Source of the DNA: Acidimicrobiia bacterium | GTDB taxonomy: Bacteria > Actinomycetota > Acidimicrobiia > Spongiisociales > Spongiisociaceae | Assembly (NCBI GenBank): GCA_041576165.1 | Contig: JBFGLM010000003.1 | Span: forward strand, 1-64,000 | Direction of reading: 5' to 3' | Length of the DNA stretch: 64,000 bases | In this document: piece by piece, positions 30,926 through 41,931 of the stretch | How positions within the stretch are numbered: the first letter of the stretch is position 1 | Layout of the letters: each line of letters opens with the position of its first letter | The notes under the pieces: model-generated | What the model was told of the DNA's origin: nothing | The model's database searches: none | The model's input: the letters and a program-made list of their open reading frames with translations, nothing else | Position numbers and translations under genes: made by a program

Positions 30926-33430
30926 TTAGACGACGGGGTCGAGCATCCGCCGAGTCGACGGCTCCCGGGATCCGAGGGCCGACCCCACGCCGGCAATCAC
31001 CGGCACGAGGACCGCAACCGCCAGCACCGTCAACCACGGCACCACGACCGGGAGCGGATTGGGCTGTGAAGCCTGGATGATCGCGACCGGAACGAATCCG
31101 GCCGGGACTGCCAGCACCCCGGCCAGGCCGGCAAGGAGGAACCCTCCTGTGCCTGCCACCTTGCGGCGCATTGCGGGGCCGGCGCCGACCGAGGCCAGGA
31201 TCGCCTGGTCCCGCCGTGACTCCGACGCCACCAGGGCGATGGCCACCGTGAGGATGGCGAGGGCAACGCCGGCGCCTACGGCAAAGGTGACGGCCTTGAA
31301 AGCCGCGTTGCTCGGCTGGGTGTCGAAGAGCGAGTAGACCGCCGCTCCTTCGTAGGCAGTCGCGAGCAGCCGCGCCTCGGCCAGCTTGGGTTTGGAAAGA
31401 TCCGACGGGAGGCGTATCAGCGTGCCGGATGAGTAGGAGGCATCAGTGATGCCCAGCTCCGCCGCCCGTTCTTCCGAGATGACGAAGGCCGGCAGCCAAC
31501 CGTCGTCGAAGCGGGTCGCGGGACCATCGGAGGTAGCGGCTGTGATCTGCGTCCATTCCTCGGAGGCCGATTTCGGAGGCACCTGGAGGTCGGCAGGCGT
31601 TCCTTCCGGGCGCATGGCGCCCAGGGCCACGATCTGTCCTGTTTCCAGTTCGTTGATCGCGTCCTCGGCATGGAGGGCGGTGAGAAGGCCGGCGTCGGCA
31701 ATCATGAGGGGCCCACCCTGCTCGTCGCTGAAGTCGTCTGCTATCCCGGGGATCATCGCCCACACCCCCCAATCGGCTGCCGCCTCTCCGCCCGCCATTT
31801 CCTGCAGCACCGGATAAGCAGCTGGATCCCACGAGGCTTGGCGCAGATCGGCTGCGATCGCGCCGGGGAAAGCGGACAGCAGGTCGTCGACCAGCGTCGA
31901 CTCGCTGCCGTCAGCGGACAGCCCGGGCTGGACGATCACGTGATCCTCGGCCAGCGCGGGAATGGCCGACTCGGAACGCTCCTGTCCAGCCAGCCAGCCG
32001 GCAACTGCCACCGGCATCGCCAGCGCAACCGTGGCAGCGGCAACGGCGGCGCCGGTGCGGCGGGCGTGGCGGGCGGTATCCCGCGCGGCCAGCCGTCCGG
32101 CGGTGGGGAGCCGGTGGGCGCTGTCTCCCAACACCTTGACCATGGTCGGGATCAGAACCAGGAATCCGCCCATGAGAATGACGAGGCCGATGGCCTGAAC
32201 CACACTCTCGAACTTGACGGTGCCCCAGCCGGTGATCACGCCACCGATGATCAACGCCGCCAGACCCCAGCGAGCCAGCCTGGCCGGGGGAGGGGGCGGA
32301 GCGGTGCGTCCCGCCAGTGCGTCGGTCGGGTCGAGGCGGGCTGCCGCTTTCGCCGGGGTGAGCGCGGCCAGCGTGGCCGCCGTGGTGCCCAGCACGACCG
32401 CGCCCAGCAGGAAGAGCGGGGATGGGTCGAGCGGGCCGGTCACGCGGCCGGCGATCGTGTCGAGGTGCGGCTGGACCAGCAATGCACCCACCACCCCGAT
32501 CGCAACACCTGTCAAGGATCCGACCAGACCGAGCACCAATCCGCCCGCAAGGACGGTCAGCCGGGTGTGGCGGGCCTCCCCGCCGGCGGCGGCCAGCAGG
32601 CCCAGTGCCCGAAGCTGGCGCCGGGCCCCGACAGTGAAGGCGGCCGCAGCGATGAGACCTGTCTCGACCAGCGCCAGCGCCGCAATGGCGAAGCTGGCGC
32701 CCATGGCTTCGGTTGCACCGCTCAGCTCCACGATCGATCGCCGGTCGACGGTCGAGACCGGTTGCGCCGCCTGGATCTTGGCGACCGCATCCTGGATCGA
32801 CGTTTCGTCCGGGAGGTCGATGAAGAGGTTGACGGCGGTGTCCTCGTAGCCGGCGAGCGAACCCGGAGCCAGCAGCCCTATCGGGTCCCAGACTGCCTCC
32901 GGCGCAACGGCCACACCGACGACGGTGAGCTCCAGCAGCGGCTCGTCCACGACGAACGTGTCACCGATCTCCAGGCCACGCCGCTCCAGCAGGCGTGGAT
33001 GGACCGCAACCTCGTTCTTGGCATTCGGCGCGCGGCCTTCCAGCACCTGGTACATGCCGACCGTGGCGCCAATGGTGGGCCCGTCGGTCAGATTCACATA
33101 GTCGTAGGCACCCCCCAGCGTGGACTCGCCCGCCAGGTTCCGCTGCACCGCGAATTGTGTCCCCGCGGGCAGCACCTTTTGATACGAGGCCGGATCCGTG
33201 AGCGCCGGATCGTCGCTGCTGAATCCCATGATCGCCAGCTCAGCCCGGCCCATCAGGCCGGTCGCTCGCTCCTCGAACGAGGGTGAGGCGGTTCGAATCG
33301 AGATGGCAGCAGTGGTCAATCCGGCGACGGGCAGGGCGATCATGGCCACCACCAGCAGGCTGCGCCAGCGATTGCGTTTTGCCTCCCGCCACGCCATACG
33401 GGTGGCGGCCTTGAATTCGGCCGCCTTCAT
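30926..33430 (-). CDS. FtsX-like ABC permease (MacB-type, two permease units)
   Basis: GARRQLRALGLLAAAGG and ESRRDQAILASVGA motifs. ATG 33430 overlaps the ATPase stop. Confidence 0.85.
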   Translation of the reverse strand: MKAAEFKAATRMAWREAKRNRWRSLLVVAMIALPVAGLTTAAISIRTASPSFEERATGLMGRAELAIMGFSSDDPALTDPASYQKVLPAGTQFAVQRNLAGESTLGGAYDYVNLTDGPTIGATVGMYQVLEGRAPNAKNEVAVHPRLLERRGLEIGDTFVVDEPLLELTVVGVAVAPEAVWDPIGLLAPGSLAGYEDTAVNLFIDLPDETSIQDAVAKIQAAQPVSTVDRRSIVELSGATEAMGASFAIAALALVETGLIAAAAFTVGARRQLRALGLLAAAGGEARHTRLTVLAGGLVLGLVGSLTGVAIGVVGALLVQPHLDTIAGRVTGPLDPSPLFLLGAVVLGTTAATLAALTPAKAAARLDPTDALAGRTAPPPPPARLARWGLAALIIGGVITGWGTVKFESVVQAIGLVILMGGFLVLIPTMVKVLGDSAHRLPTAGRLAARDTARHARRTGAAVAAATVALAMPVAVAGWLAGQERSESAIPALAEDHVIVQPGLSADGSESTLVDDLLSAFPGAIAADLRQASWDPAAYPVLQEMAGGEAAADWGVWAMIPGIADDFSDEQGGPLMIADAGLLTALHAEDAINELETGQIVALGAMRPEGTPADLQVPPKSASEEWTQITAATSDGPATRFDDGWLPAFVISEERAAELGITDASYSSGTLIRLPSDLSKPKLAEARLLATAYEGAAVYSLFDTQPSNAAFKAVTFAVGAGVALAILTVAIALVASESRRDQAILASVGAGPAMRRKVAGTGGFLLAGLAGVLAVPAGFVPVAIIQASQPNPLPVVVPWLTVLAVAVLVPVIAGVGSALGSREPSTRRMLDPVV

Positions 33431-34140
33431 TGCACGGTTGCCAGCAGCGTGGCGGGTGAATCCCACTCGTTGGCCTCGTCGACGATGCGGCCGTCCCGCA
33501 GGAACACGATGCGGTCGGCCCAGGCGGCGAGCCGGCTGTCGTGGGTGACCAGGATGCCGCAGCCTCCCATCTCGCAGTGCCGGCGCATGACCTGGAGCAC
33601 GGTCTCGCCGGTCGTTGTGTCGAGCGCGCCGGTGGGCTCGTCGGCCAGCAACAGCGTGCGTGTACCAACGATGGCCCGGGCGATCGCCACCCGTTGTTGC
33701 TCGCCGCCCGACAGTTCTTCCGGGAATCGATCCGCCAGCTCACGAATCTCGACCCGGTCCAGGGCTTGAAGTGCTTGTTGCGTGGCGATCCGGTGGCTGA
33801 TGCCATCCAGTTCCAGCGGCAGTGACACGTTCTCGGCCGCAGTCAGGCCTTCGATCAGGTTGTACTGCTGGAACACGTAGCCGATCCGCCGGCGGCGCAG
33901 CGCGGCGCGCGCCGCGACCGACAGCGTGGCTAGGTCGACGTCGTCGACGAACACCTTGCCCGCCGTGGGTTGATCGAGACCGCCGGCCAGCGCCAGCAGT
34001 GTCGACTTGCCTGAGCCGGACGGGCCCATGACGGCCACCAGCTCCCCGCGGTCGAGAGACAACTTGGCATTCACGAGGGCGGCCACCCGTGTGTGGCCTT
34101 CCCCGTGGATGCGGGTGACGTTGTGCAGTTTCAGGATCAT
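33427..34140 (-). CDS. ABC ATP-binding protein (LolD/MacB-like)
   Basis: [32 protein letters not shown]. Confidence 0.92.
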   Translation of the reverse strand: MILKLHNVTRIHGEGHTRVAALVNAKLSLDRGELVAVMGPSGSGKSTLLALAGGLDQPTAGKVFVDDVDLATLSVAARAALRRRRIGYVFQQYNLIEGLTAAENVSLPLELDGISHRIATQQALQALDRVEIRELADRFPEELSGGEQQRVAIARAIVGTRTLLLADEPTGALDTTTGETVLQVMRRHCEMGGCGILVTHDSRLAAWADRIVFLRDGRIVDEANEWDSPATLLATVQ

Positions 34141-34724
34141 TGAGATGCCTCGGGAATGACGGACTGCTGCTCAATGGCCGCAGTCGGTTGGATGGGACTG
34201 CGAGTGATCCGGCCGGCGCGAGCGATTCGTTCTTCACACGCGTCCAGCCAGCGCACCCGCGATTCGGTCTTGAAGATCAGCGAGTCGACGGCCATGAGCC
34301 AGCCCAGATCGGCCTGGTCGCCGGCGTCGGTTTTGAGTTTCGTGTACTCCTGGAGGCGCCGTAGTGCTGCCCGTCGTTCGGTCTGGAGGATCGCAGTGAT
34401 TTCGGCATCCGGATTGGCGGCAGCCAGCACCAGCTTGAGCACGATCTCGTCCCGGGCGGGGATCACGTGCCGGGTGGGCCGGCTGAACCAGCTGTTGAGG
34501 CTGGCCCGACCCGACTCGGTGATCTCATAGACCTTGTGGGTGTCGTCGTGCTCGACCTGCATCAGCACCAGGCCGTCCCGCTCGAGCCGGTTGAGGGTGG
34601 TGTACACCTGGCCGACGTTCAGCGGCCACACGCCGCCGGTGCGGACCTCGAACTCCTCTTTGAGTTGCAGCCCATACATGGGTCGCTCGTCGAGCAGGGC
34701 GAGGATGCTCATCGGGACAGACAC
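34137..34724 (-). CDS. PadR family regulator with C-terminal dimerisation domain
   Basis: YGLQLK.EFE.RTGGVWPLNVGQVYTTLNRLERDGLV, RDEIVLKL. Confidence 0.9.
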   Translation of the reverse strand: MSVPMSILALLDERPMYGLQLKEEFEVRTGGVWPLNVGQVYTTLNRLERDGLVLMQVEHDDTHKVYEITESGRASLNSWFSRPTRHVIPARDEIVLKLVLAAANPDAEITAILQTERRAALRRLQEYTKLKTDAGDQADLGWLMAVDSLIFKTESRVRWLDACEERIARAGRITRSPIQPTAAIEQQSVIPEASQ

Positions 34725-35721: not shown

Positions 35722-36621
35722 TCAGAAATGCCAGGGGAACTCGCTGTAGTCCTGGGGCCGCTTCTCGAGAAAGGCATCGCGACCCTCCTGGGCCTCATCG
35801 CTTGCGTAGGCGAGCCGGGTTGCCTCGCCGGCGAAAACTTGCTGGCCGACCAACCCGTCGTCGATGAGGTTGAAAGCGAACTTCAGCATCCGTTGCGCGG
35901 TTGGGCTCTTGCGGTTGATGATGTCGGCCCATTCGAGGGCGGTTGTTTCCAACTCGGCGTGGGGGACGGCCCGGTTCGCCATCCCCATCGCCACCGCCTC
36001 CTCAGCCGAGTAGTCGAATCCGAGGAAGAACAGCTCCCGGGCGCGCTTTTGACCCATCTGGCGAGCTAGATACGCACTACCGAAACCACCGTCGAAGCTG
36101 GCCACGTCAGCGTCGGTCTGTTTGAAGACTGCGTGTTCCCGGGAGGCAAGCGTGAGATCGCACACGACGTGGAGGCTATGTCCGCCGCCCACTGCCCAGC
36201 CCGGCACAACCGCGATGACGATCTTGGGCATGAAACGTATCAGCCGCTGGACCTCCAGGATGTGGAGCCGCCCCACCCGGGCCGGATCGATCGCCTCCGC
36301 ACTATCCCCTTCCGCATATTTGTATCCGTCCCTGCCGCGGATGCGCTGGTCGCCGCCGGAACAGAACGCCCAAATCCCGTCTTTGGGTGAGGGCCCGTTA
36401 CCGGTCAGCAGGACCGTTCCCACGTCGGTCCACTGGCGGGCGTGATCGAGTGCCCGGTACAGCTCGTCGACAGTGTGGGGCCGGAACGCGTTGCGAACCT
36501 CTGGCCGGTTGAAAGCAATCCGCGCCGTGCCTTGGTCGACTGCACGGTGATAGGTGATATCGGTGAAATCGAAGCCGTCGACTGCGCTCCACCGGTCCGG
36601 GTCGAAGAGTTCAGACACCAT
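35722..36621 (-). CDS. menB: 1,4-dihydroxy-2-naphthoyl-CoA synthase
   Basis: RPEVRNAFRP, AFCSGGDQRIRG, LHILEVQRLIR, GGGHSLHVVCD, SFDGGFGS. Confidence 0.96.
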   Translation of the reverse strand: MVSELFDPDRWSAVDGFDFTDITYHRAVDQGTARIAFNRPEVRNAFRPHTVDELYRALDHARQWTDVGTVLLTGNGPSPKDGIWAFCSGGDQRIRGRDGYKYAEGDSAEAIDPARVGRLHILEVQRLIRFMPKIVIAVVPGWAVGGGHSLHVVCDLTLASREHAVFKQTDADVASFDGGFGSAYLARQMGQKRARELFFLGFDYSAEEAVAMGMANRAVPHAELETTALEWADIINRKSPTAQRMLKFAFNLIDDGLVGQQVFAGEATRLAYASDEAQEGRDAFLEKRPQDYSEFPWHF

Positions 36622-36722
36622 CAGCGCCGACCTTCCATCTACGTCGGCGCAGAACGATACCGCCGTGACCGGCCAGCGATGAAGACGGGAAACGCCTGGC
36701 CAATTGGGGACGTCTAAGGAGC

Positions 36723-36851
36723 ATGAAACGATTGATGGCCGCAGCCCTGACCGTCGCCGTCATCTGGGCTGCCTGCGGACAGAATCCAACGGCGTTGGGC
36801 GAGTACGAGATAGAACCGGCCGACGCCGCGCATGTGATCGAACTGACGTGA
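36723..36851 (+). CDS. Putative 42-aa lipoprotein (absent from the ORF track)
   Basis: AAGGAG directly before ATG; MKRLMAAALTVAVIWAAC-GQNPTALGEYEIEPADAAHVIELT. Confidence 0.5.
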   Translation: MKRLMAAALTVAVIWAACGQNPTALGEYEIEPADAAHVIELT

Positions 36852-36861
36852 TGCTGCGCAG

Positions 36862-37794
36862 TCAGTGAGTGGGTACTGCTTCCGGTTCACACACGCCACA
36901 GGCGACCGAATCGCCGTGGGCAACCACCGCCGCCAGACGGTCCTGCTCCGTTTGGTACTGGGGGGTGTCGTGCCGCGGGGTGCGGTGGTCGATGAGCTCC
37001 CGCGCCTGGTCCTTCCACGGCGTTCCCCAGGAATAGGTCAGTGGCAGGATCGTGCCCGGCTCAGAGATCGATGCGAAAGCGGCGAGCGCGTCGCGCATGA
37101 TCGACACCTGCTCCGCGGGCCGGCCCGGCCGCCCGGTCGTGTGGCCGAGCGGGAAGTCGAGGAAGACGGCGCGGGGAGGGTGCGCGGCTGCCGTGATCGA
37201 CCACGCGCTCGTCATACAGAGAGTGGGGATACCGGCGGCCTCGATCTCGCGTGCGATCAGCCCAACTGACTGATGGCAAACCGGTCAGACCGGCACCAGC
37301 AGCACCACATCGGCGGCCATTTGTTGGACCTCGCCGACGAGGCGGGGGATCAGCTCCGACCGAAGCCGTCGCTGCGAGTAGATCCCGCCCATGAAGGTCA
37401 GCGCGTGCGGAGTGAGGCTGCCCAGCTCTCCCGACTCAACCATGAAACGGAGCGGCTCGATCGGGAAGACGACGTTGGGGTCGCGGCGGGCGTCGGTCTG
37501 GTCGTAGGCGAAGTGGGTGACTCTCAGATCGGTCACCGCGATGGATGTCTCCACCCTTCGGTAGCTCACGTCGTCTTTGTGAGTGAATGCAACCTGGCCG
37601 GATCGGTAGATCCCGCCTGAGGCGATCAGGGCCAGGCGCGCCTGGGCCATCGGAAACGCCATGGGCACGAGCGCCGGCGGGTCGGGGTTGGCGGCCCAGC
37701 GGTATTCGCCATAACCGAGACTGTTGTACGTGGCTCGGGTTTGGGCGATGTAGTCGACCACATCAAGTTCAGCAGGTGCCGGGCGCGGGAACAT
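36862..37794 (-). CDS. PrdB/GrdB-like selenoprotein (glycine/betaine/proline reductase selenoprotein B family); TGA 37285-37287 read as Sec
   Basis: The frame reads ...DVVLLVPV-TGA-PVCHQSVGLIAREIEAAGIPT...PPRAVFLDFPLG and joins ORFs 37285-37797 and 36862-37215 in frame (310 aa). N-half has LALIASGG and DPNVVFPI. Confidence 0.88.
37252..37278 (-). promoter_or_regulatory. Candidate bacterial SECIS hairpin
   Basis: UGC-c-AUCAGUC-[AGUUG]-GGCUGAU-c-GCA; loop starts 17 nt after the UGA with G at loop position 2. Confidence 0.65.
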
Positions 37795-38240
37795 CACGCG
37801 TCCTCAGGCGGTGGCCAGGCCGGGTCGAGCTGGCGCAAGAATTGTTCCACCCGTTCGTGCTCGTTGTGTTCCCCGATGCGCTGCGCGAGGCGGCCCAGTC
37901 CGGCGAGGCACGACAGGAAGCCCCGGTTGGCCTCATGGTCCCACCGAACGTAGCCACTCCCGCGCCAGCCGTTCTTACGCAGAGCGTCCAGCCCCCGGTG
38001 GTACCCGACCCGGAACGCGCTGTAGGCGTGAACCACGTCCACAGCGGAGGTCGCAGCTGCTTCGGTTGCCCGTCCCAACGCCGCCCAGGCGGCGAGGCTG
38101 GCGGGATGTTCGGCGATCACGCCGGCTAGACCCTCGGGGTCGGATCCGGCTGCAGCCAGCCGGGCGTGGAGATCGGCGTCCTCAGCCGGGAGGACGGTAT
38201 CGGGTGGCCCCTCGGCGGAGAGGTCGACTGGCTGGCTCAT
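37794..38240 (-). CDS. DUF3151 family protein
   Basis: AYSAFRVGYHRGLDALRKNGWRGSG.V.W.HEANRGFL. TAGGCT-6 nt-ATG 38240; stop overlaps the selenoprotein start (TGATG). Confidence 0.85.
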   Translation of the reverse strand: MSQPVDLSAEGPPDTVLPAEDADLHARLAAAGSDPEGLAGVIAEHPASLAAWAALGRATEAAATSAVDVVHAYSAFRVGYHRGLDALRKNGWRGSGYVRWDHEANRGFLSCLAGLGRLAQRIGEHNEHERVEQFLRQLDPAWPPPEDA

Positions 38241-38273
38241 CACCCCAGCCTAAACGCCTGCCGGGCGGCGCTG

Positions 38274-39357: not shown

Positions 39358-41931
39358 TCAGACGAAGCGAATCTCGCCGTCACCGGCATCTACCGTCACG
39401 GTGTCACCGTCGGTGAAGTTGCCGGCCAGCAGTTCGACCGCCAGCCGGTCCGCGACCTCCTTTTGCAACACTCGCTTGAGCGGCCGGGCCCCGTAGCTGG
39501 GGTCGTACCCCTGCTCCGCCAACCATTCTTTCGCGACGTCGGTGAACTCCAGCTCGATGTTCCGCTGCCGCAACCGGCCCGCCAGCATCGCAGCCTGGAT
39601 GCCGACGATTTGGCGCAAGTCGTCTTTCGACAGCCGGTGGAACACGATCAGCTCGTCGACCCGGTTGAGGAACTCGGGGCGAAAATGCGACTGGGCTGCG
39701 TTCAGCACGCGTTCATTGACCACCTCGTCGGGCAGATCAGGCTGGATGAACTCCGAGCCCAGGTTGGAGGTCATGATCACCACTGCGTTGGTGAAGTCGA
39801 CCGTCCGGCCCTGACCGTCGGTCAAGCGCCCGTCGTCCATGAGTTGCAGCAGCACATTGAACACATCCGGATGCGCCTTCTCGATCTCATCGAGCAGGAT
39901 CACTGCATAGGGACGGCGCCGGACGGCCTCGGTCAGCTGGCCGCCCTCGTCGTACCCCACATATCCGGGCGGCGCTCCGATGAGACGGCTGACCGAGTGC
40001 TTCTCCATATATTCCGACATGTCGATTCGAACCATCGCCCGTTCGTCGTCGAAGAGGAACGCAGCCAGCGCCCGTGCCAGCTCGGTCTTGCCGACGCCCG
40101 TCGGCCCGAGAAACAGGAACGTCCCGATCGGTCGATTCGGATCGGAGAGGCCCGACCGGCTGCGCCGCACGGCATTGGCTACTGCCTCGACAGCGGCCTC
40201 CTGCCCGACGACCCGGGTATGGAGGTGATCTTCGAGCTTGATCAGTTTTTCGATCTCGCCCTCCATGAGACGCGAGACCGGGACTCCGGTCCAGCGGCTG
40301 ACAACCTCTGCCACATCCTCCTCATCCACCTCTTCGGTGAGCATCCGGGTGGTGGCTTGTAGCTTCTCGAGCGCCTCTTGATGTTCGGCAAGCTCCTTCT
40401 CGAATTCCCGGGTCCGCCCATAGCGAAGCTCGGCCGCCCGCTCGAGGTCACCTTCTCGTTCGGCTCGCTCGGCTCCGGTGCGCGCCTCCTCCAGCTGGAG
40501 CTTCACGTCCCGGATGTCGGCTATGGCAGACTTCTCCAGCTGCCAGTGAGCTTGCAGCCCTTCGGCGTCCTCGCGGAGGTTGGCCAGCTCCTCATCGAGG
40601 GCCGCCAGTCGCTGCTTGGAAGCTTCGTCCGTCTCTTTGGCGAGCGCGGTCCGTTCGATCTCCAGCTGCTGGATGCGCCGTTCGAGTTCGTCGATCTCCT
40701 CGGGCATCGAGTCGATTTCGATACGAAGCCGGCTGGCGGCTTCGTCGATCAGGTCGATCGCCTTGTCCGGCAGGAAGCGGGCGGTGATGTAACGGTCGGA
40801 CAAAACGGCCGCCGCCACCAGCGCCGAGTCGGTGATGCGCACACCGTGGTGGATCTCGTAGCGTTCTTTCAGCCCGCGCAGGATGCCGACCGTGTCCTCC
40901 ACCGACGGTGGTTCAACCAGCACTGGAGCGAACCTGCGCTCGAGCGCCGGATCCTTCTCAACGTGCTTGCGGAACTCGTCCAGGGTGGTAGCGCCGATCA
41001 TGCGCAGCTCGCCGCGAGCGAGCATCGGCTTGAGCATGTTGGATGCGTCCATCGAGCCTTCGGCCGCCCCGGCCCCGACGATCGTGTGCATCTCGTCGAT
41101 GAAGGTGATGATCTGACCTTCAGATGCTTTGATCTCGTTGAGGACGGCTTTGAGGCGCTCCTCGAATTCGCCCCGGTATTTGGCGCCGGCCACCATGGCC
41201 GATAAGTCAAGGGCCACTATCCGCTTGTTCTTCAGTCCTTCCGGCACGTCGCCATCTGCGATCCGGCGGGCGAGACCTTCTACGATGGCGGTCTTACCGA
41301 CTCCGGGCTCGCCGATCAGCACCGGGTTGTTCTTGGTGCGACGCGACAGCACCTGGATCACCCGACGGATCTCCTCGTCGCGCCCGATGACCGGATCGAG
41401 CTTCTGCTGGCGGGCGGCCTCGGTCAGATCGCGGCCGTACTGTTCGAGTGCATCGAACGTGGCCTCCGGGTCCTGACTGGTAACCCGTTGGTTCCCGCGC
41501 AGCTCGCTCAGAGCACCCAGAACGGCGTCTCGCGTCACGCCCAAATCGCGGAAGGCATCGCCAGCTTCGCCGGCGCTCTCGGCCAGGGCCAGGACGAGGT
41601 GCTCGACCGAGAGGTAATCGTCCTTGAAGTCGGCTCGGGCGTTGTCGGCTGCCTCCAGCATCTTGAATGCCTCGGAGGAGAAAGCTGGCTCTTCGCCCCC
41701 ATAGACCTTGGGCTTGCGGTCGAGGATTTGTTCGATCCGGCGCTTGAGCTCCGGCGGTTGGACCCCGAGCGCAGACAGCAGCGGATACACGATGCCCTCC
41801 GTCTGGGAGAGCAACGCCACCGCCACGTGCGCCGGGTCGACCTGAGTGTGGTGACGGACTTCGGCGACCTCCCGGGCCGTCACGAGCGCCGATTGCGATT
41901 TGTGTGTCAGTTTGTTGAAGTCGAAAGCCAT
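39358..41931 (-). CDS. clpB: Disaggregase ClpB
   Basis: Two AAA modules ([16 protein letters not shown]), coiled-coil M domain, GAPPGYVGY. Confidence 0.97.

What the first reader, a model, noticed from the sequence alone, without database searches (positions are those of the whole stretch)
36862..37794. Hidden selenoprotein: in-frame UGA in a PrdB-like UxxC motif with a SECIS hairpin
Seen: two ORF-track fragments are one frame, LLVPV-TGA-PVCHQSVGLIAREIEAAGIPT. A stem-loop (37252-37278) has its loop 17 nt after the UGA with G at position 2. Established: D-proline reductase PrdB and glycine reductase GrdB carry Sec in UxxC, and bacterial SECIS elements lie just 3' of the UGA. Inference: a 310-aa selenoprotein with Sec170. 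No prdA/grdE partner is nearby, so its substrate and partners are unknown, and it implies Sec machinery in this lineage.
Basis: partly seen in the sequence, partly recalled or inferred. Interest (0 to 1): 0.82.

Follow-up and report, generated by a model that had tools for sequence, protein, structure and literature searches.

The report
Unannotated stand-alone PrdB-like selenoprotein gene
One gene in this Acidimicrobiia genome reads an internal UGA "stop" as selenocysteine to make a single 310-residue enzyme; it is real, but it belongs to a selenoprotein family already known from ocean metagenomes since 2005, so it is an ordinary annotation miss rather than a discovery.

Summary
On the minus strand, ATG 37794 to stop 36862 is one frame with a single in-frame TGA (37287-37285) in VPV-U-PVC-HQSVGL. 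The same TGA column is present in all 107 of 107 orthologous loci examined. 35 of 38 full-length database homologues have Cys there and 3 have Thr. A 7-bp hairpin with an NGUNG loop starts 10 nt after the UGA. It is 97.7% paired across 80 distinct sequences, with one compensatory pair and suppressed synonymous variation. The genome holds selA, selB, selD and tRNA-Sec, as do 5 of 5 closed relatives for selA and tRNA-Sec.

The protein is PrdB/GrdB-like: TIGR04483 scores 140 bits, below its 300-bit equivalog cut-off, and PF07355 just passes. No PrdA/GrdE or GrdA was found, and gene neighbours differ between clades. So it is a stand-alone UxxC selenoenzyme, probably not a D-proline reductase.

"PrdB" (pfam07355, UxxC) is already listed among the most abundant marine selenoprotein families (PMC1088965, PMC2398784). 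Verdict: a real selenoprotein and a new member of a known kind. Substrate unknown. Low to moderate interest.

The parts
36862..37794 (-). Coding sequence of the PrdB/GrdB-like selenoprotein: 310 aa from ATG 37794-37792, terminal stop TGA 36864-36862.
   Evidence: Translation. TIGR04483 6.3e-41 over residues 40-256, and PF07355 26.8 bits. Orthologues at 58-67% identity in 26 of 28 same-family genomes. The N-terminal MFPRPAPAEL resembles full-length homologues.
37285..37287 (-). In-frame UGA read as selenocysteine (Sec170 from the ATG), first residue of the UPVC (UxxC) motif.
   Evidence: TGA in 107 of 107 orthologous loci. Cys in 35 of 38 and Thr in 3 of 38 full-length homologues.
37256..37274 (-). 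Core SECIS-like hairpin: 7-bp stem (37274-37268 with 37262-37256) and 5-nt loop AGUUG (37267-37263), with G 37266 and U 37265 conserved.
   Evidence: MFE folds. RNAalifold consensus on 80 distinct sequences gives the same 7 pairs. 97.7% of cells paired; pair 21-37 is UA 54, CG 13, UG 4, other 9. Reduced codon entropy at these codons.
37252..37278 (-).
   Evidence: Present in the window's MFE fold. The three extra pairs form in only 31, 57 and 52 of 80 sequences and show no covariation, so this part is window- or clade-specific.
37801..37805 (-). Shine-Dalgarno-like GAGGA, 6 nt upstream of ATG 37794.
   Evidence: Read directly from the sequence.
37794..38243 (-). Upstream DUF3151 gene. Its stop TGA (37796-37794) overlaps the ATG of the selenoprotein gene (TGATG), which suggests one operon.
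   Evidence: PF11349 3.2e-38; sequence. A homologue lies upstream in 13 of 26 same-family loci.
35722..36621 (-). Downstream enoyl-CoA hydratase/isomerase gene on the same strand, syntenic within the family.
   Evidence: PF00378 1.5e-47. A homologue at 77-83% identity lies directly downstream in 23 of 26 same-family loci. It was found beside no orthologue locus that is not the same genome as one of those family loci.

Best explanation
The minus-strand gene 37794..36862 encodes one 310-residue selenoprotein of the GrdB/PrdB superfamily. The internal UGA (37287-37285) is decoded as selenocysteine by SelB and tRNA-Sec, recruited by a short hairpin inside the coding sequence: a 7-bp stem and an NGUNG loop, with the loop 17 nt after the UGA. 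Shown here: the conserved TGA, the Sec/Cys pairing with homologues, the conserved hairpin with constrained synonymous sites, and the presence of the Sec machinery. Inferred: Sec170 sits with Cys173 (UPVC) at the N-terminal cap of a helix that follows a beta-strand in a Rossmann-like alpha/beta domain. As in PrdB and GrdB, it would act as the nucleophile that attacks a substrate carbon or chalcogen and is then resolved by Cys173 into a selenenyl-sulfide, which a dithiol donor such as thioredoxin reduces. The protein scores below the PrdB equivalog threshold, no pyruvoyl PrdA/GrdE partner or GrdA was found, and neighbouring genes differ between clades. It is therefore most likely a stand-alone reductase with a different, still unknown small-molecule substrate, not the B subunit of D-proline reductase. 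It belongs to the family that marine selenoproteome surveys already list as 'PrdB'.
For: Single frame with one TGA in UPVC. TIGR04483 PrdB 6.3e-41, 140.4 bits, covering 17-233 of 238 profile positions; PF07355 26.8 bits against a cut-off of 22. 26 of 28 same-family genomes hold an orthologue at 58-67% identity, each with 1 TGA inside. TGA falls in the same column in 107 of 107 loci: the window, 26 family loci and 80 of 80 genome-contig loci; 85 of these CDS are distinct. Cys aligns with the Sec in 35 of 38 full-length homologues and Thr in 3, and 14 invariant residues lie downstream of the UGA. Hairpin: 97.7% of 560 cells paired, against at most 43.9% for slid controls, and 0 of 500 shuffles reach the observed values for percentage of cells paired, cells with a change on both sides and the covariation score. 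One pair shows a compensatory U-A to C-G change in 13 sequences, and RNAalifold finds the same 7 pairs. Synonymous sites: normalised codon entropy is 0.52 for the 9 codons after the UGA against 0.80 for 114 other conserved codons (one-sided Mann-Whitney p = 0.006). Gln is CAG in 85 of 85, Leu is CTG in 85 of 85, and Gly is never GGC. Sec machinery in the genome: selA twice, selB twice, selD, and tRNA-Sec twice with anticodon TCA. 5 of 5 closed relatives have tRNA-Sec (74-78 bits) and selA. AlphaFold2 model: pLDDT 93.8, pTM 0.93, strand 164-168 followed by helix 172-187. [quoted passage not shown]
Against: No experiment shows selenium incorporation or read-through. The hairpin's folding energy is not exceptional for this G+C-rich sequence (z +0.17 and -1.46). 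Four of the seven stem pairs never vary, so most of the structural support comes from conservation, which partly overlaps the protein constraint on HQSVGL. Sequences in the comparison are related, so the shuffle counts and the p value overstate independence. The absence of PrdA/GrdE and GrdA rests on Pfam searches whose controls rang in none of 14 control genomes, in a genome that is 96.5% complete with 7.5% contamination. The catalytic mechanism is by analogy only. No solved structure or fold match supports it: the best VIA Z is 8.0, a generic Rossmann-like match. I could not check that the 'PrdB' sequences of the marine surveys are this same stand-alone clade, because their supplements are closed.
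Confidence: 0.88

Rival explanations
1. It is a genuine D-proline reductase B subunit (PrdB) that works with a PrdA pyruvoyl subunit encoded elsewhere in the genome.
For: The best NCBIfam hit is TIGR04483 PrdB (6.3e-41), covering nearly the whole profile with the same UxxC motif. The PF09338 search has no working positive control, and the genome is incomplete.
Against: The 140.4-bit score is far below the 300-bit equivalog cut-off. PF09338 (PrdA/GrdE) and PF04723 (GrdA) found nothing in the genome. No such gene lies within 1.5-4 kb in the 106 related loci, where the conserved neighbours are enoyl-CoA hydratase, DUF3151, NuoF/NuoG-like proteins, SDR, a methyltransferase and PEP carboxylase. The protein carries about 40 N-terminal and 55 C-terminal residues beyond the PrdB profile, with their own invariant residues.
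Confidence: 0.05
2. The UGA terminates translation. The locus is a pseudogene, or encodes two separate polypeptides: a 170-aa N-terminal half and a C-terminal half restarting at ATG 37215.
For: Table 11 gives two ORFs. Public gene calls for relatives are 171-178-aa fragments ending at ...LLVPV. The hairpin's energy is unremarkable.
Against: TGA, and no other stop, is kept at exactly this codon in 107 of 107 loci spanning several phyla-level labels. The 24 codons between the UGA and the next ATG include invariant P172, C174, H175, Q176, A182, R183 and G189, which in Cys homologues are part of one chain. The frame stays open for 121-141 codons after the TGA in every locus.
Confidence: 0.04
3. 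UGA is read here as a standard amino acid, either through a reassigned genetic code or through near-cognate read-through inserting Cys or Trp, rather than as selenocysteine.
For: Cys homologues show that a thiol at this site is viable.
Against: The same gene, and the DUF3151 gene upstream, both end with TGA, so TGA is a normal stop in this organism. A dedicated tRNA-Sec with anticodon TCA, selA, selB and selD are present. A conserved hairpin immediately 3' of the UGA is the signature of SelB-dependent recoding.
Confidence: 0.02

Closest known systems
'Proline reductase PrdB' selenoprotein family of marine metagenomes (pfam07355, UxxC; Zhang, Fomenko & Gladyshev 2005, PMC1088965; Zhang & Gladyshev 2008, PMC2398784)
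   Same: Same Pfam family and same UxxC Sec motif, found in aerobic aquatic and marine bacteria. Sec forms outnumber Cys forms (235 against 110 in GOS), as seen here, where all 107 closest loci carry TGA.
   Different: I could not confirm sequence-level identity with those survey sequences, because their supplementary lists are closed. The surveys describe the family by the clostridial enzyme's function, which the evidence here does not support for this clade.
PrdB, the 26-kDa selenocysteine subunit of D-proline reductase of Clostridium sticklandii and C. difficile (Kabisch et al. 1999, seen only as a citation in PMC1088965 and PMC13188914; NCBIfam TIGR04483)
   Same: Homologous over about 217 residues (6.3e-41), with Sec in UxxC at the equivalent position and a SECIS hairpin directly after the UGA.
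   Different: The score is below the equivalog cut-off (140 against 300 bits). It is about 70 residues longer, with conserved N- and C-terminal extensions. No PrdA partner was found in the genome (PrdC and PrdD/E were not searched for), no prd operon is nearby, and the hosts are Acidimicrobiia and Binatia rather than amino-acid-fermenting Clostridia.
GrdB / GrdF / GrdH, the substrate-specific selenoprotein B of glycine, sarcosine and betaine reductases (PF07355, TIGR01917, TIGR01918)
   Same: Weak but significant homology to the C-terminal half (E 5e-11 to 4e-10), and a Sec-containing UxxC motif.
   Different: GrdB-type proteins are about 430 aa with an extra N-terminal half. The scores here (38.8-42.2 bits) are below all curated cut-offs, including the subfamily model TIGR01918 (65.45). 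No GrdA or GrdE was found.

Membership tests
Bacterial selenoprotein gene (SelB-dependent UGA recoding) | In-frame UGA conserved among orthologues, with the reading frame conserved on both sides | tested here: met
   TGA in the same column in 107 of 107 loci, with an open frame of 121-141 codons after it. Each of 26 family orthologues has 1 TGA inside.
Bacterial selenoprotein gene (SelB-dependent UGA recoding) | Homologues with Cys at the Sec position | tested here: met
   35 of 38 full-length homologues have Cys and 3 have Thr.
Bacterial selenoprotein gene (SelB-dependent UGA recoding) | SECIS stem-loop just 3' of the UGA with a small apical loop containing G. The numeric criteria (16-37 nt from UGA to loop, G among the first two loop bases) are recalled. 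[quoted passage not shown] | tested here: met
   7-bp stem and 5-nt loop NGUNG, 17 nt after the UGA. 97.7% of cells paired in 80 distinct sequences, with one compensatory pair. Constrained synonymous sites. Energy alone is not significant. No Rfam family matches.
Bacterial selenoprotein gene (SelB-dependent UGA recoding) | selA, selB, selC (tRNA-Sec) and selD in the genome | tested here: met
   All are over the curated cut-offs, and ARAGORN gives anticodon TCA. tRNA-Sec and selA are also in 5 of 5 closed relatives.
Bacterial selenoprotein gene (SelB-dependent UGA recoding) | Selenium actually incorporated into a full-length product | not testable with these tools
   Needs 75Se labelling or mass spectrometry.
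Pfam PF07355 GRDB (glycine/sarcosine/betaine reductase selenoprotein B family) | Score at or above the gathering threshold (22 bits) | tested here: met
   26.8 bits, E 3.9e-6. The match covers only residues 49-140, upstream of the Sec.
NCBIfam TIGR04483, D-proline reductase PrdB (equivalog) | Score at or above the curated cut-off (300 bits) | tested here: not met
   140.4 bits.
NCBIfam TIGR04483, D-proline reductase PrdB (equivalog) | Sec (or Cys) in a UxxC motif at the active site | tested here: met
   U-P-V-C at residues 170-173 counted from the ATG.
NCBIfam TIGR04483, D-proline reductase PrdB (equivalog) | Pyruvoyl-forming PrdA proprotein (PF09338) encoded in the genome, normally in a prd operon | tested here: inconclusive
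   No PF09338 match in the own genome, but the control rang in none of 14 control genomes. No such gene appears in the flanks of 106 related loci.
NCBIfam TIGR01918, glycine/betaine/sarcosine/D-proline reductase selenoprotein B (subfamily) | Score at or above the curated cut-off (65.45 bits) | tested here: not met
   40.1 bits.
Glycine reductase complex | GrdA (PF04723) present | tested here: inconclusive
   No match in the own genome, and the control rang nowhere.

The most novel reading that the evidence does not exclude
The clade to which this gene belongs uses Sec in all 107 loci seen. It is spread across Acidimicrobiia (including sponge-associated Spongiisociaceae), Binatia and others, always without a PrdA/GrdE partner and with different neighbours in each lineage. 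It may be a self-sufficient selenoenzyme with a chemistry not yet described for the GrdB/PrdB superfamily: a reductive C-X cleavage or a selenol-based redox reaction that needs no pyruvoyl subunit. Marine selenoproteome surveys would then have mislabelled it 'proline reductase' for two decades. The many invariant polar residues (Y24, Y32, Y64, Q68, D76, R80, H95, Y140, S141, H175, Q176, R183, R209, W257, W261, R275) suggest a defined small-molecule active site rather than a generic thiol oxidoreductase.
Probability: 0.5. Interest if true: 0.55.

Novelty: new member of a known kind. Interest (0 to 1): 0.25.

Why it matters
For annotation: the gene, its orthologues in at least 26 related genomes and many database entries are truncated at the Sec codon. 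Proteomes of these sponge-associated and marine Acidimicrobiia therefore miss a conserved enzyme, along with three further GRDB-family selenoproteins in this genome alone. For biology: it confirms active selenocysteine use in this lineage. It also points to an abundant, aerobic, stand-alone branch of the PrdB/GrdB superfamily whose substrate has never been determined. The finding does not reveal a new recoding mechanism or a new protein family.

Tried and rejected
- Rfam scan of 37150-37350 on both strands at E up to 10: only chance miRNA and snoRNA hits, no SECIS family.
- PDB sequence search: 0 hits at E up to 0.01.
- Foldseek against PDB: no hit at E up to 0.001.
- VIA-align wide search: the best Z is 8.0 (MlrC N-terminal domain), tied with LacI/periplasmic-binding-protein and SDR Rossmann-like folds. 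I read this as a generic alpha/beta arrangement, not as homology.
- PF09338 and PF04723 searches in the own genome found nothing, but their controls rang in none of the 14 control genomes, so absence is not shown.
- MFE z-scores do not support the hairpin on their own.
- My first synteny clustering used greedy longest ORFs. It was contaminated by antisense ORFs typical of high-G+C DNA, for example a cluster of ORFs antisense to the gene itself. I replaced it with tblastn using the window's neighbour proteins, plus Pfam on cluster representatives.
- Neighbours of the paralogues gave no common partner.
- Literature: 'PrdB-like' returned 0 papers. 'selenoprotein' plus 'Acidimicrobiia' returned 2. 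One is a 2026 preprint on Actinomarina that reports Sec machinery and predicted selenoproteins, with 0 occurrences of PrdB or GrdB.
- Not done: expression data (look-up of sequencing runs, read laying), since RNA cannot decide read-through; complex prediction, since no binding claim is made.

Full report
**1. The observation**

On the minus strand the window reads ...GCC GCC GAT GTG GTG CTG CTG GTG CCG GTC TGA CCG GTT TGC CAT CAG TCA GTT GGG CTG ATC.... With TGA read as U, the frame from 37797 to 36862 is open except for the terminal TGA. It gives ...AADVVLLVPV-U-PVCHQSVGLIAREIEAAGIPT.... Under table 11 the same stretch appears as two ORFs, 37285..37797 and 36862..37215.

The likely start is ATG 37794. 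It is preceded by GAGGA at a 6-nt spacing, and it overlaps the stop codon of the upstream DUF3151 gene as TGATG. The N-terminal MFPRPAPAEL... also resembles the N-termini of full-length homologues.

It has a 7-bp core (37274-37268 with 37262-37256), the loop AGUUG, and a 3-bp lower stem across a C-C mismatch. The loop begins 17 nt after the UGA, and its second base is G.

**2. Is it more than chance?**

Thermodynamics alone says little. The 66-nt fold has z = +0.17. The 41 nt from the UGA fold at -13.9 kcal/mol with z = -1.46, and 16 of 200 shuffles fold as well. The comparative evidence is strong.

- **Orthologues in relatives.** A six-frame search of 60 relatives found an orthologue at 58-67% identity in 26 of 28 genomes of the same family, each with exactly one TGA inside the match. 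The two genomes without a match are 72% and 78% complete.
- **Wider collection.** A scan of the species-representative genome collection returned 234 relatives. All 80 of the 80 loci kept carry TGA at the same column. With the window and the 26 family loci that makes 107 of 107. The two sets overlap, so these are 85 distinct coding sequences.
- **Sec/Cys pairing.** The full-length proteins in the large protein database, at 38-55% identity, have Cys at that column in 35 of 38 cases and Thr in 3 (P0007, P0014, P0015). P172, C174, H175, Q176, A182, R183 and G189, which follow the UGA, are invariant.
- **Truncated database entries.** Many other database hits are 171-217-aa fragments covering about 50% of the query. 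The five I inspected all end at ...LLVPV, so they were cut at the TGA by gene callers.

**3. The RNA element**

I aligned the 60 nt around the UGA from 80 distinct sequences. RNAalifold predicts the same 7-bp hairpin as the consensus. Of the 560 stem cells, 97.7% form standard pairs, against 2.7-43.9% when the 3' arm is slid by 1-3 columns.

The individual pairs behave as follows:

- Pair 21-37 is U-A in 54 sequences, C-G in 13 (compensatory), U-G in 4 and unpaired in 9.
- Pair 25-33 alternates between U-A (39) and U-G (38).
- Four pairs never vary, so they say nothing either way.

The stem lies in the codons for HQSVGL(I/V), so I tested synonymous sites. Among conserved degenerate codon columns, the 9 just after the UGA have a mean normalised codon entropy of 0.52. 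The 114 other columns average 0.80 (one-sided Mann-Whitney p = 0.006; the sequences are related, so this is approximate). Gln is CAG in 85 of 85, Leu is CTG in 85 of 85, and Gly is GGG or GGA in 82 of 85 and never GGC. Each of these is the lowest entropy value for its amino acid anywhere in the gene.

Loop bases G22 and U23, counted from the U of the UGA, are almost invariant: G in 79 of 81 and U in 81 of 81. From memory, not from a call, this resembles the G23/U24 loop bases of the E. coli fdhF SECIS. The 3-bp lower stem forms in only 31, 57 and 52 of 80 sequences and does not covary. Rfam has no matching family.

**4. The Sec machinery**

The window's genome has 161 contigs and 5.1 Mb, and is 96.5% complete with 7.5% contamination. 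It holds:

- selA on C24 and C100, at 423 and 422 bits;
- selB adjacent to each selA copy, at 287 and 302 bits;
- selD on C1, at 397 bits, itself with one in-frame TGA;
- tRNA-Sec on C1 and C145, at 79.9 and 72.9 bits, both with anticodon TCA by ARAGORN.

The bin is somewhat contaminated, so I also checked five closed, single-contig relatives that carry the orthologue. All five have a tRNA-Sec at 74-78 bits and a selA over the cut-off. TGA is otherwise a normal stop in this organism: both this gene and the DUF3151 gene end with it.

**5. What the protein is**

The best family match is NCBIfam TIGR04483, D-proline reductase PrdB. It scores E 6.3e-41 and 140.4 bits over profile positions 17-233 of 238, well below the 300-bit equivalog cut-off. 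The GrdB, GrdF and GrdH models and the subfamily model TIGR01918 score 38.8-42.2 bits, all below their cut-offs. Pfam GRDB just passes, at 26.8 bits against 22.

The AlphaFold2 model built on the 39-sequence alignment is confident (pLDDT 93.8, pTM 0.93). It places the Sec between strand 164-168 and helix 172-187 of an alpha/beta domain. No solved structure is related by sequence or clearly by fold. Foldseek gives nothing at E up to 0.001. The VIA-align wide search tops out at Z 8.0 with generic Rossmann-like and periplasmic-binding-protein-like hits.

**6. Partners and context**

PF09338 (PrdA/GrdE) and PF04723 (GrdA) find nothing in the genome. Their controls rang in none of the 14 control genomes, so absence is not proven.

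Within the family, an enoyl-CoA hydratase at 77-83% identity follows the gene directly in 23 of 26 loci, and DUF3151 lies upstream in 13 of 26. Eleven of those loci had only 1.5-kb flanks. In the window itself a 240-nt gap separates the gene from the hydratase.

Outside the family the neighbours are different:

- Binatia-labelled loci: NuoF-like and NuoG-like proteins, an exo/endonuclease-phosphatase, an SDR and a glyoxalase.
- Other Acidimicrobiales: a methyltransferase, an AAA ATPase and PEP carboxylase.

No partner is conserved across clades.

The genome also has three more GRDB-family paralogues with in-frame TGA, at 30-34% identity to this protein: two with the motif G-U-PMCH and one with V-U-PLCT. 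Their neighbours are again varied.

**7. Mechanism**

Shown: the recoding signals and the machinery. Inferred by analogy with PrdB and GrdB, from established knowledge of those enzymes and not tested here: Sec170 acts as the nucleophile and Cys173 as the resolving thiol. Together they form a selenenyl-sulfide that a dithiol system reduces again.

The pyruvoyl or carbonyl subunit that activates the substrate amine in the clostridial enzymes was not found. The protein also has its own conserved N- and C-terminal extensions and many invariant polar residues. I therefore think it acts alone on a different small substrate. A role as D-proline reductase is unlikely, at about 5%.

**8. Comparison with what is known, and novelty**

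Passages read in the Sargasso Sea selenoproteome paper list 'Proline reductase (PrdB)', UxxC, with 42 genes as the third most abundant selenoprotein family (PMC1088965). Passages read in the GOS paper list 'Proline reductase PrdB, pfam07355, UxxC' with 235 selenoproteins in 38 samples and 110 Cys homologues (PMC2398784).

Passages read in two reviews (PMC9312934; PMC13188914) list D-proline reductase PrdB (TIGR04483, UxxC) among known selenoprotein families. The first also names it among the five most widespread bacterial families.

So the family, its motif and its occurrence in aerobic aquatic bacteria are already in print. I could not see the supplementary sequence lists, so I infer, and have not shown, that the marine 'PrdB' sequences are this stand-alone clade.

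Searches for 'PrdB-like' returned 0 papers. 'selenoprotein' plus 'Acidimicrobiia' returned 2 papers, and the one I read, the Actinomarina preprint, does not mention PrdB or GrdB. These searches found no study of the function of the stand-alone form.

**9. Verdict**

It is a real, unannotated selenoprotein gene and a new member of a known kind. Interest is low to moderate (0.25).

Noticed in passing
G000:C1:171385-172317 (- strand; locus L011): The genome's selD (397 bits) has one in-frame TGA inside the match, so selenophosphate synthetase is probably itself a selenoprotein here.
   Followed up: no
G000:C24:55512-58621 and G000:C100:605-3619; tRNA-Sec at G000:C1:33376-33466 and G000:C145:1292-1382: The bin holds two selA-selB gene pairs and two tRNA-Sec genes. 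With 7.5% contamination this may be two strains or organisms in one bin rather than a true duplication. In the selA search of 5 closed relatives, each has a single selA over the cut-off.
   Followed up: partly
G000:C78:3769-4452, G000:C15:13830-14498, G000:C7:43835-44557 (loci L049, L050, L051): Three more GRDB-family paralogues, each with one in-frame TGA, at 30-34% identity to the window's protein. Their motifs are APG-U-PMCHRSVGL (two copies) and TPV-U-PLCTRTVG. Their neighbours include an amidohydrolase, an alpha/beta hydrolase, an aldo/keto reductase and a flavin amine oxidoreductase.
   Followed up: partly
window 36704-36868 (+ strand): A 54-codon ORF whose N-terminus looks like a lipoprotein signal peptide (my reading of the sequence). 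It sits in the 240-nt gap between the selenoprotein gene and the enoyl-CoA hydratase gene. It has no Pfam hit. In most relatives the hydratase follows the selenoprotein gene immediately, so this may be an insertion or a chance ORF.
   Followed up: no
proteins P0007, P0014, P0015 (alignment A1): Three full-length homologues have Thr instead of Cys or Sec at the active-site column (VTPVCH) while keeping the second Cys. That is unexpected if the first position is the essential nucleophile.
   Followed up: no
loci L058, L060, L069, L088, L108, L110, L127, L128: Orthologues at 54-62% identity sit on MAG records titled Anaerolineales, Chthoniobacterales, Verrucomicrobiales or 'uncultured Enterobacteriaceae'. 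These labels look doubtful for such close relatives of Acidimicrobiia and Binatia genes. They may reflect mis-binning or mislabelling, or possibly horizontal transfer.
   Followed up: no
window 39358-41931 (- strand) and 33427-34724 (- strand): The wider neighbourhood holds a ClpB-type chaperone (857 aa), a PadR-family regulator and an ABC-transporter ATPase. None of those tested (ClpB, PadR) is syntenic with the selenoprotein gene in relatives.
   Followed up: partly
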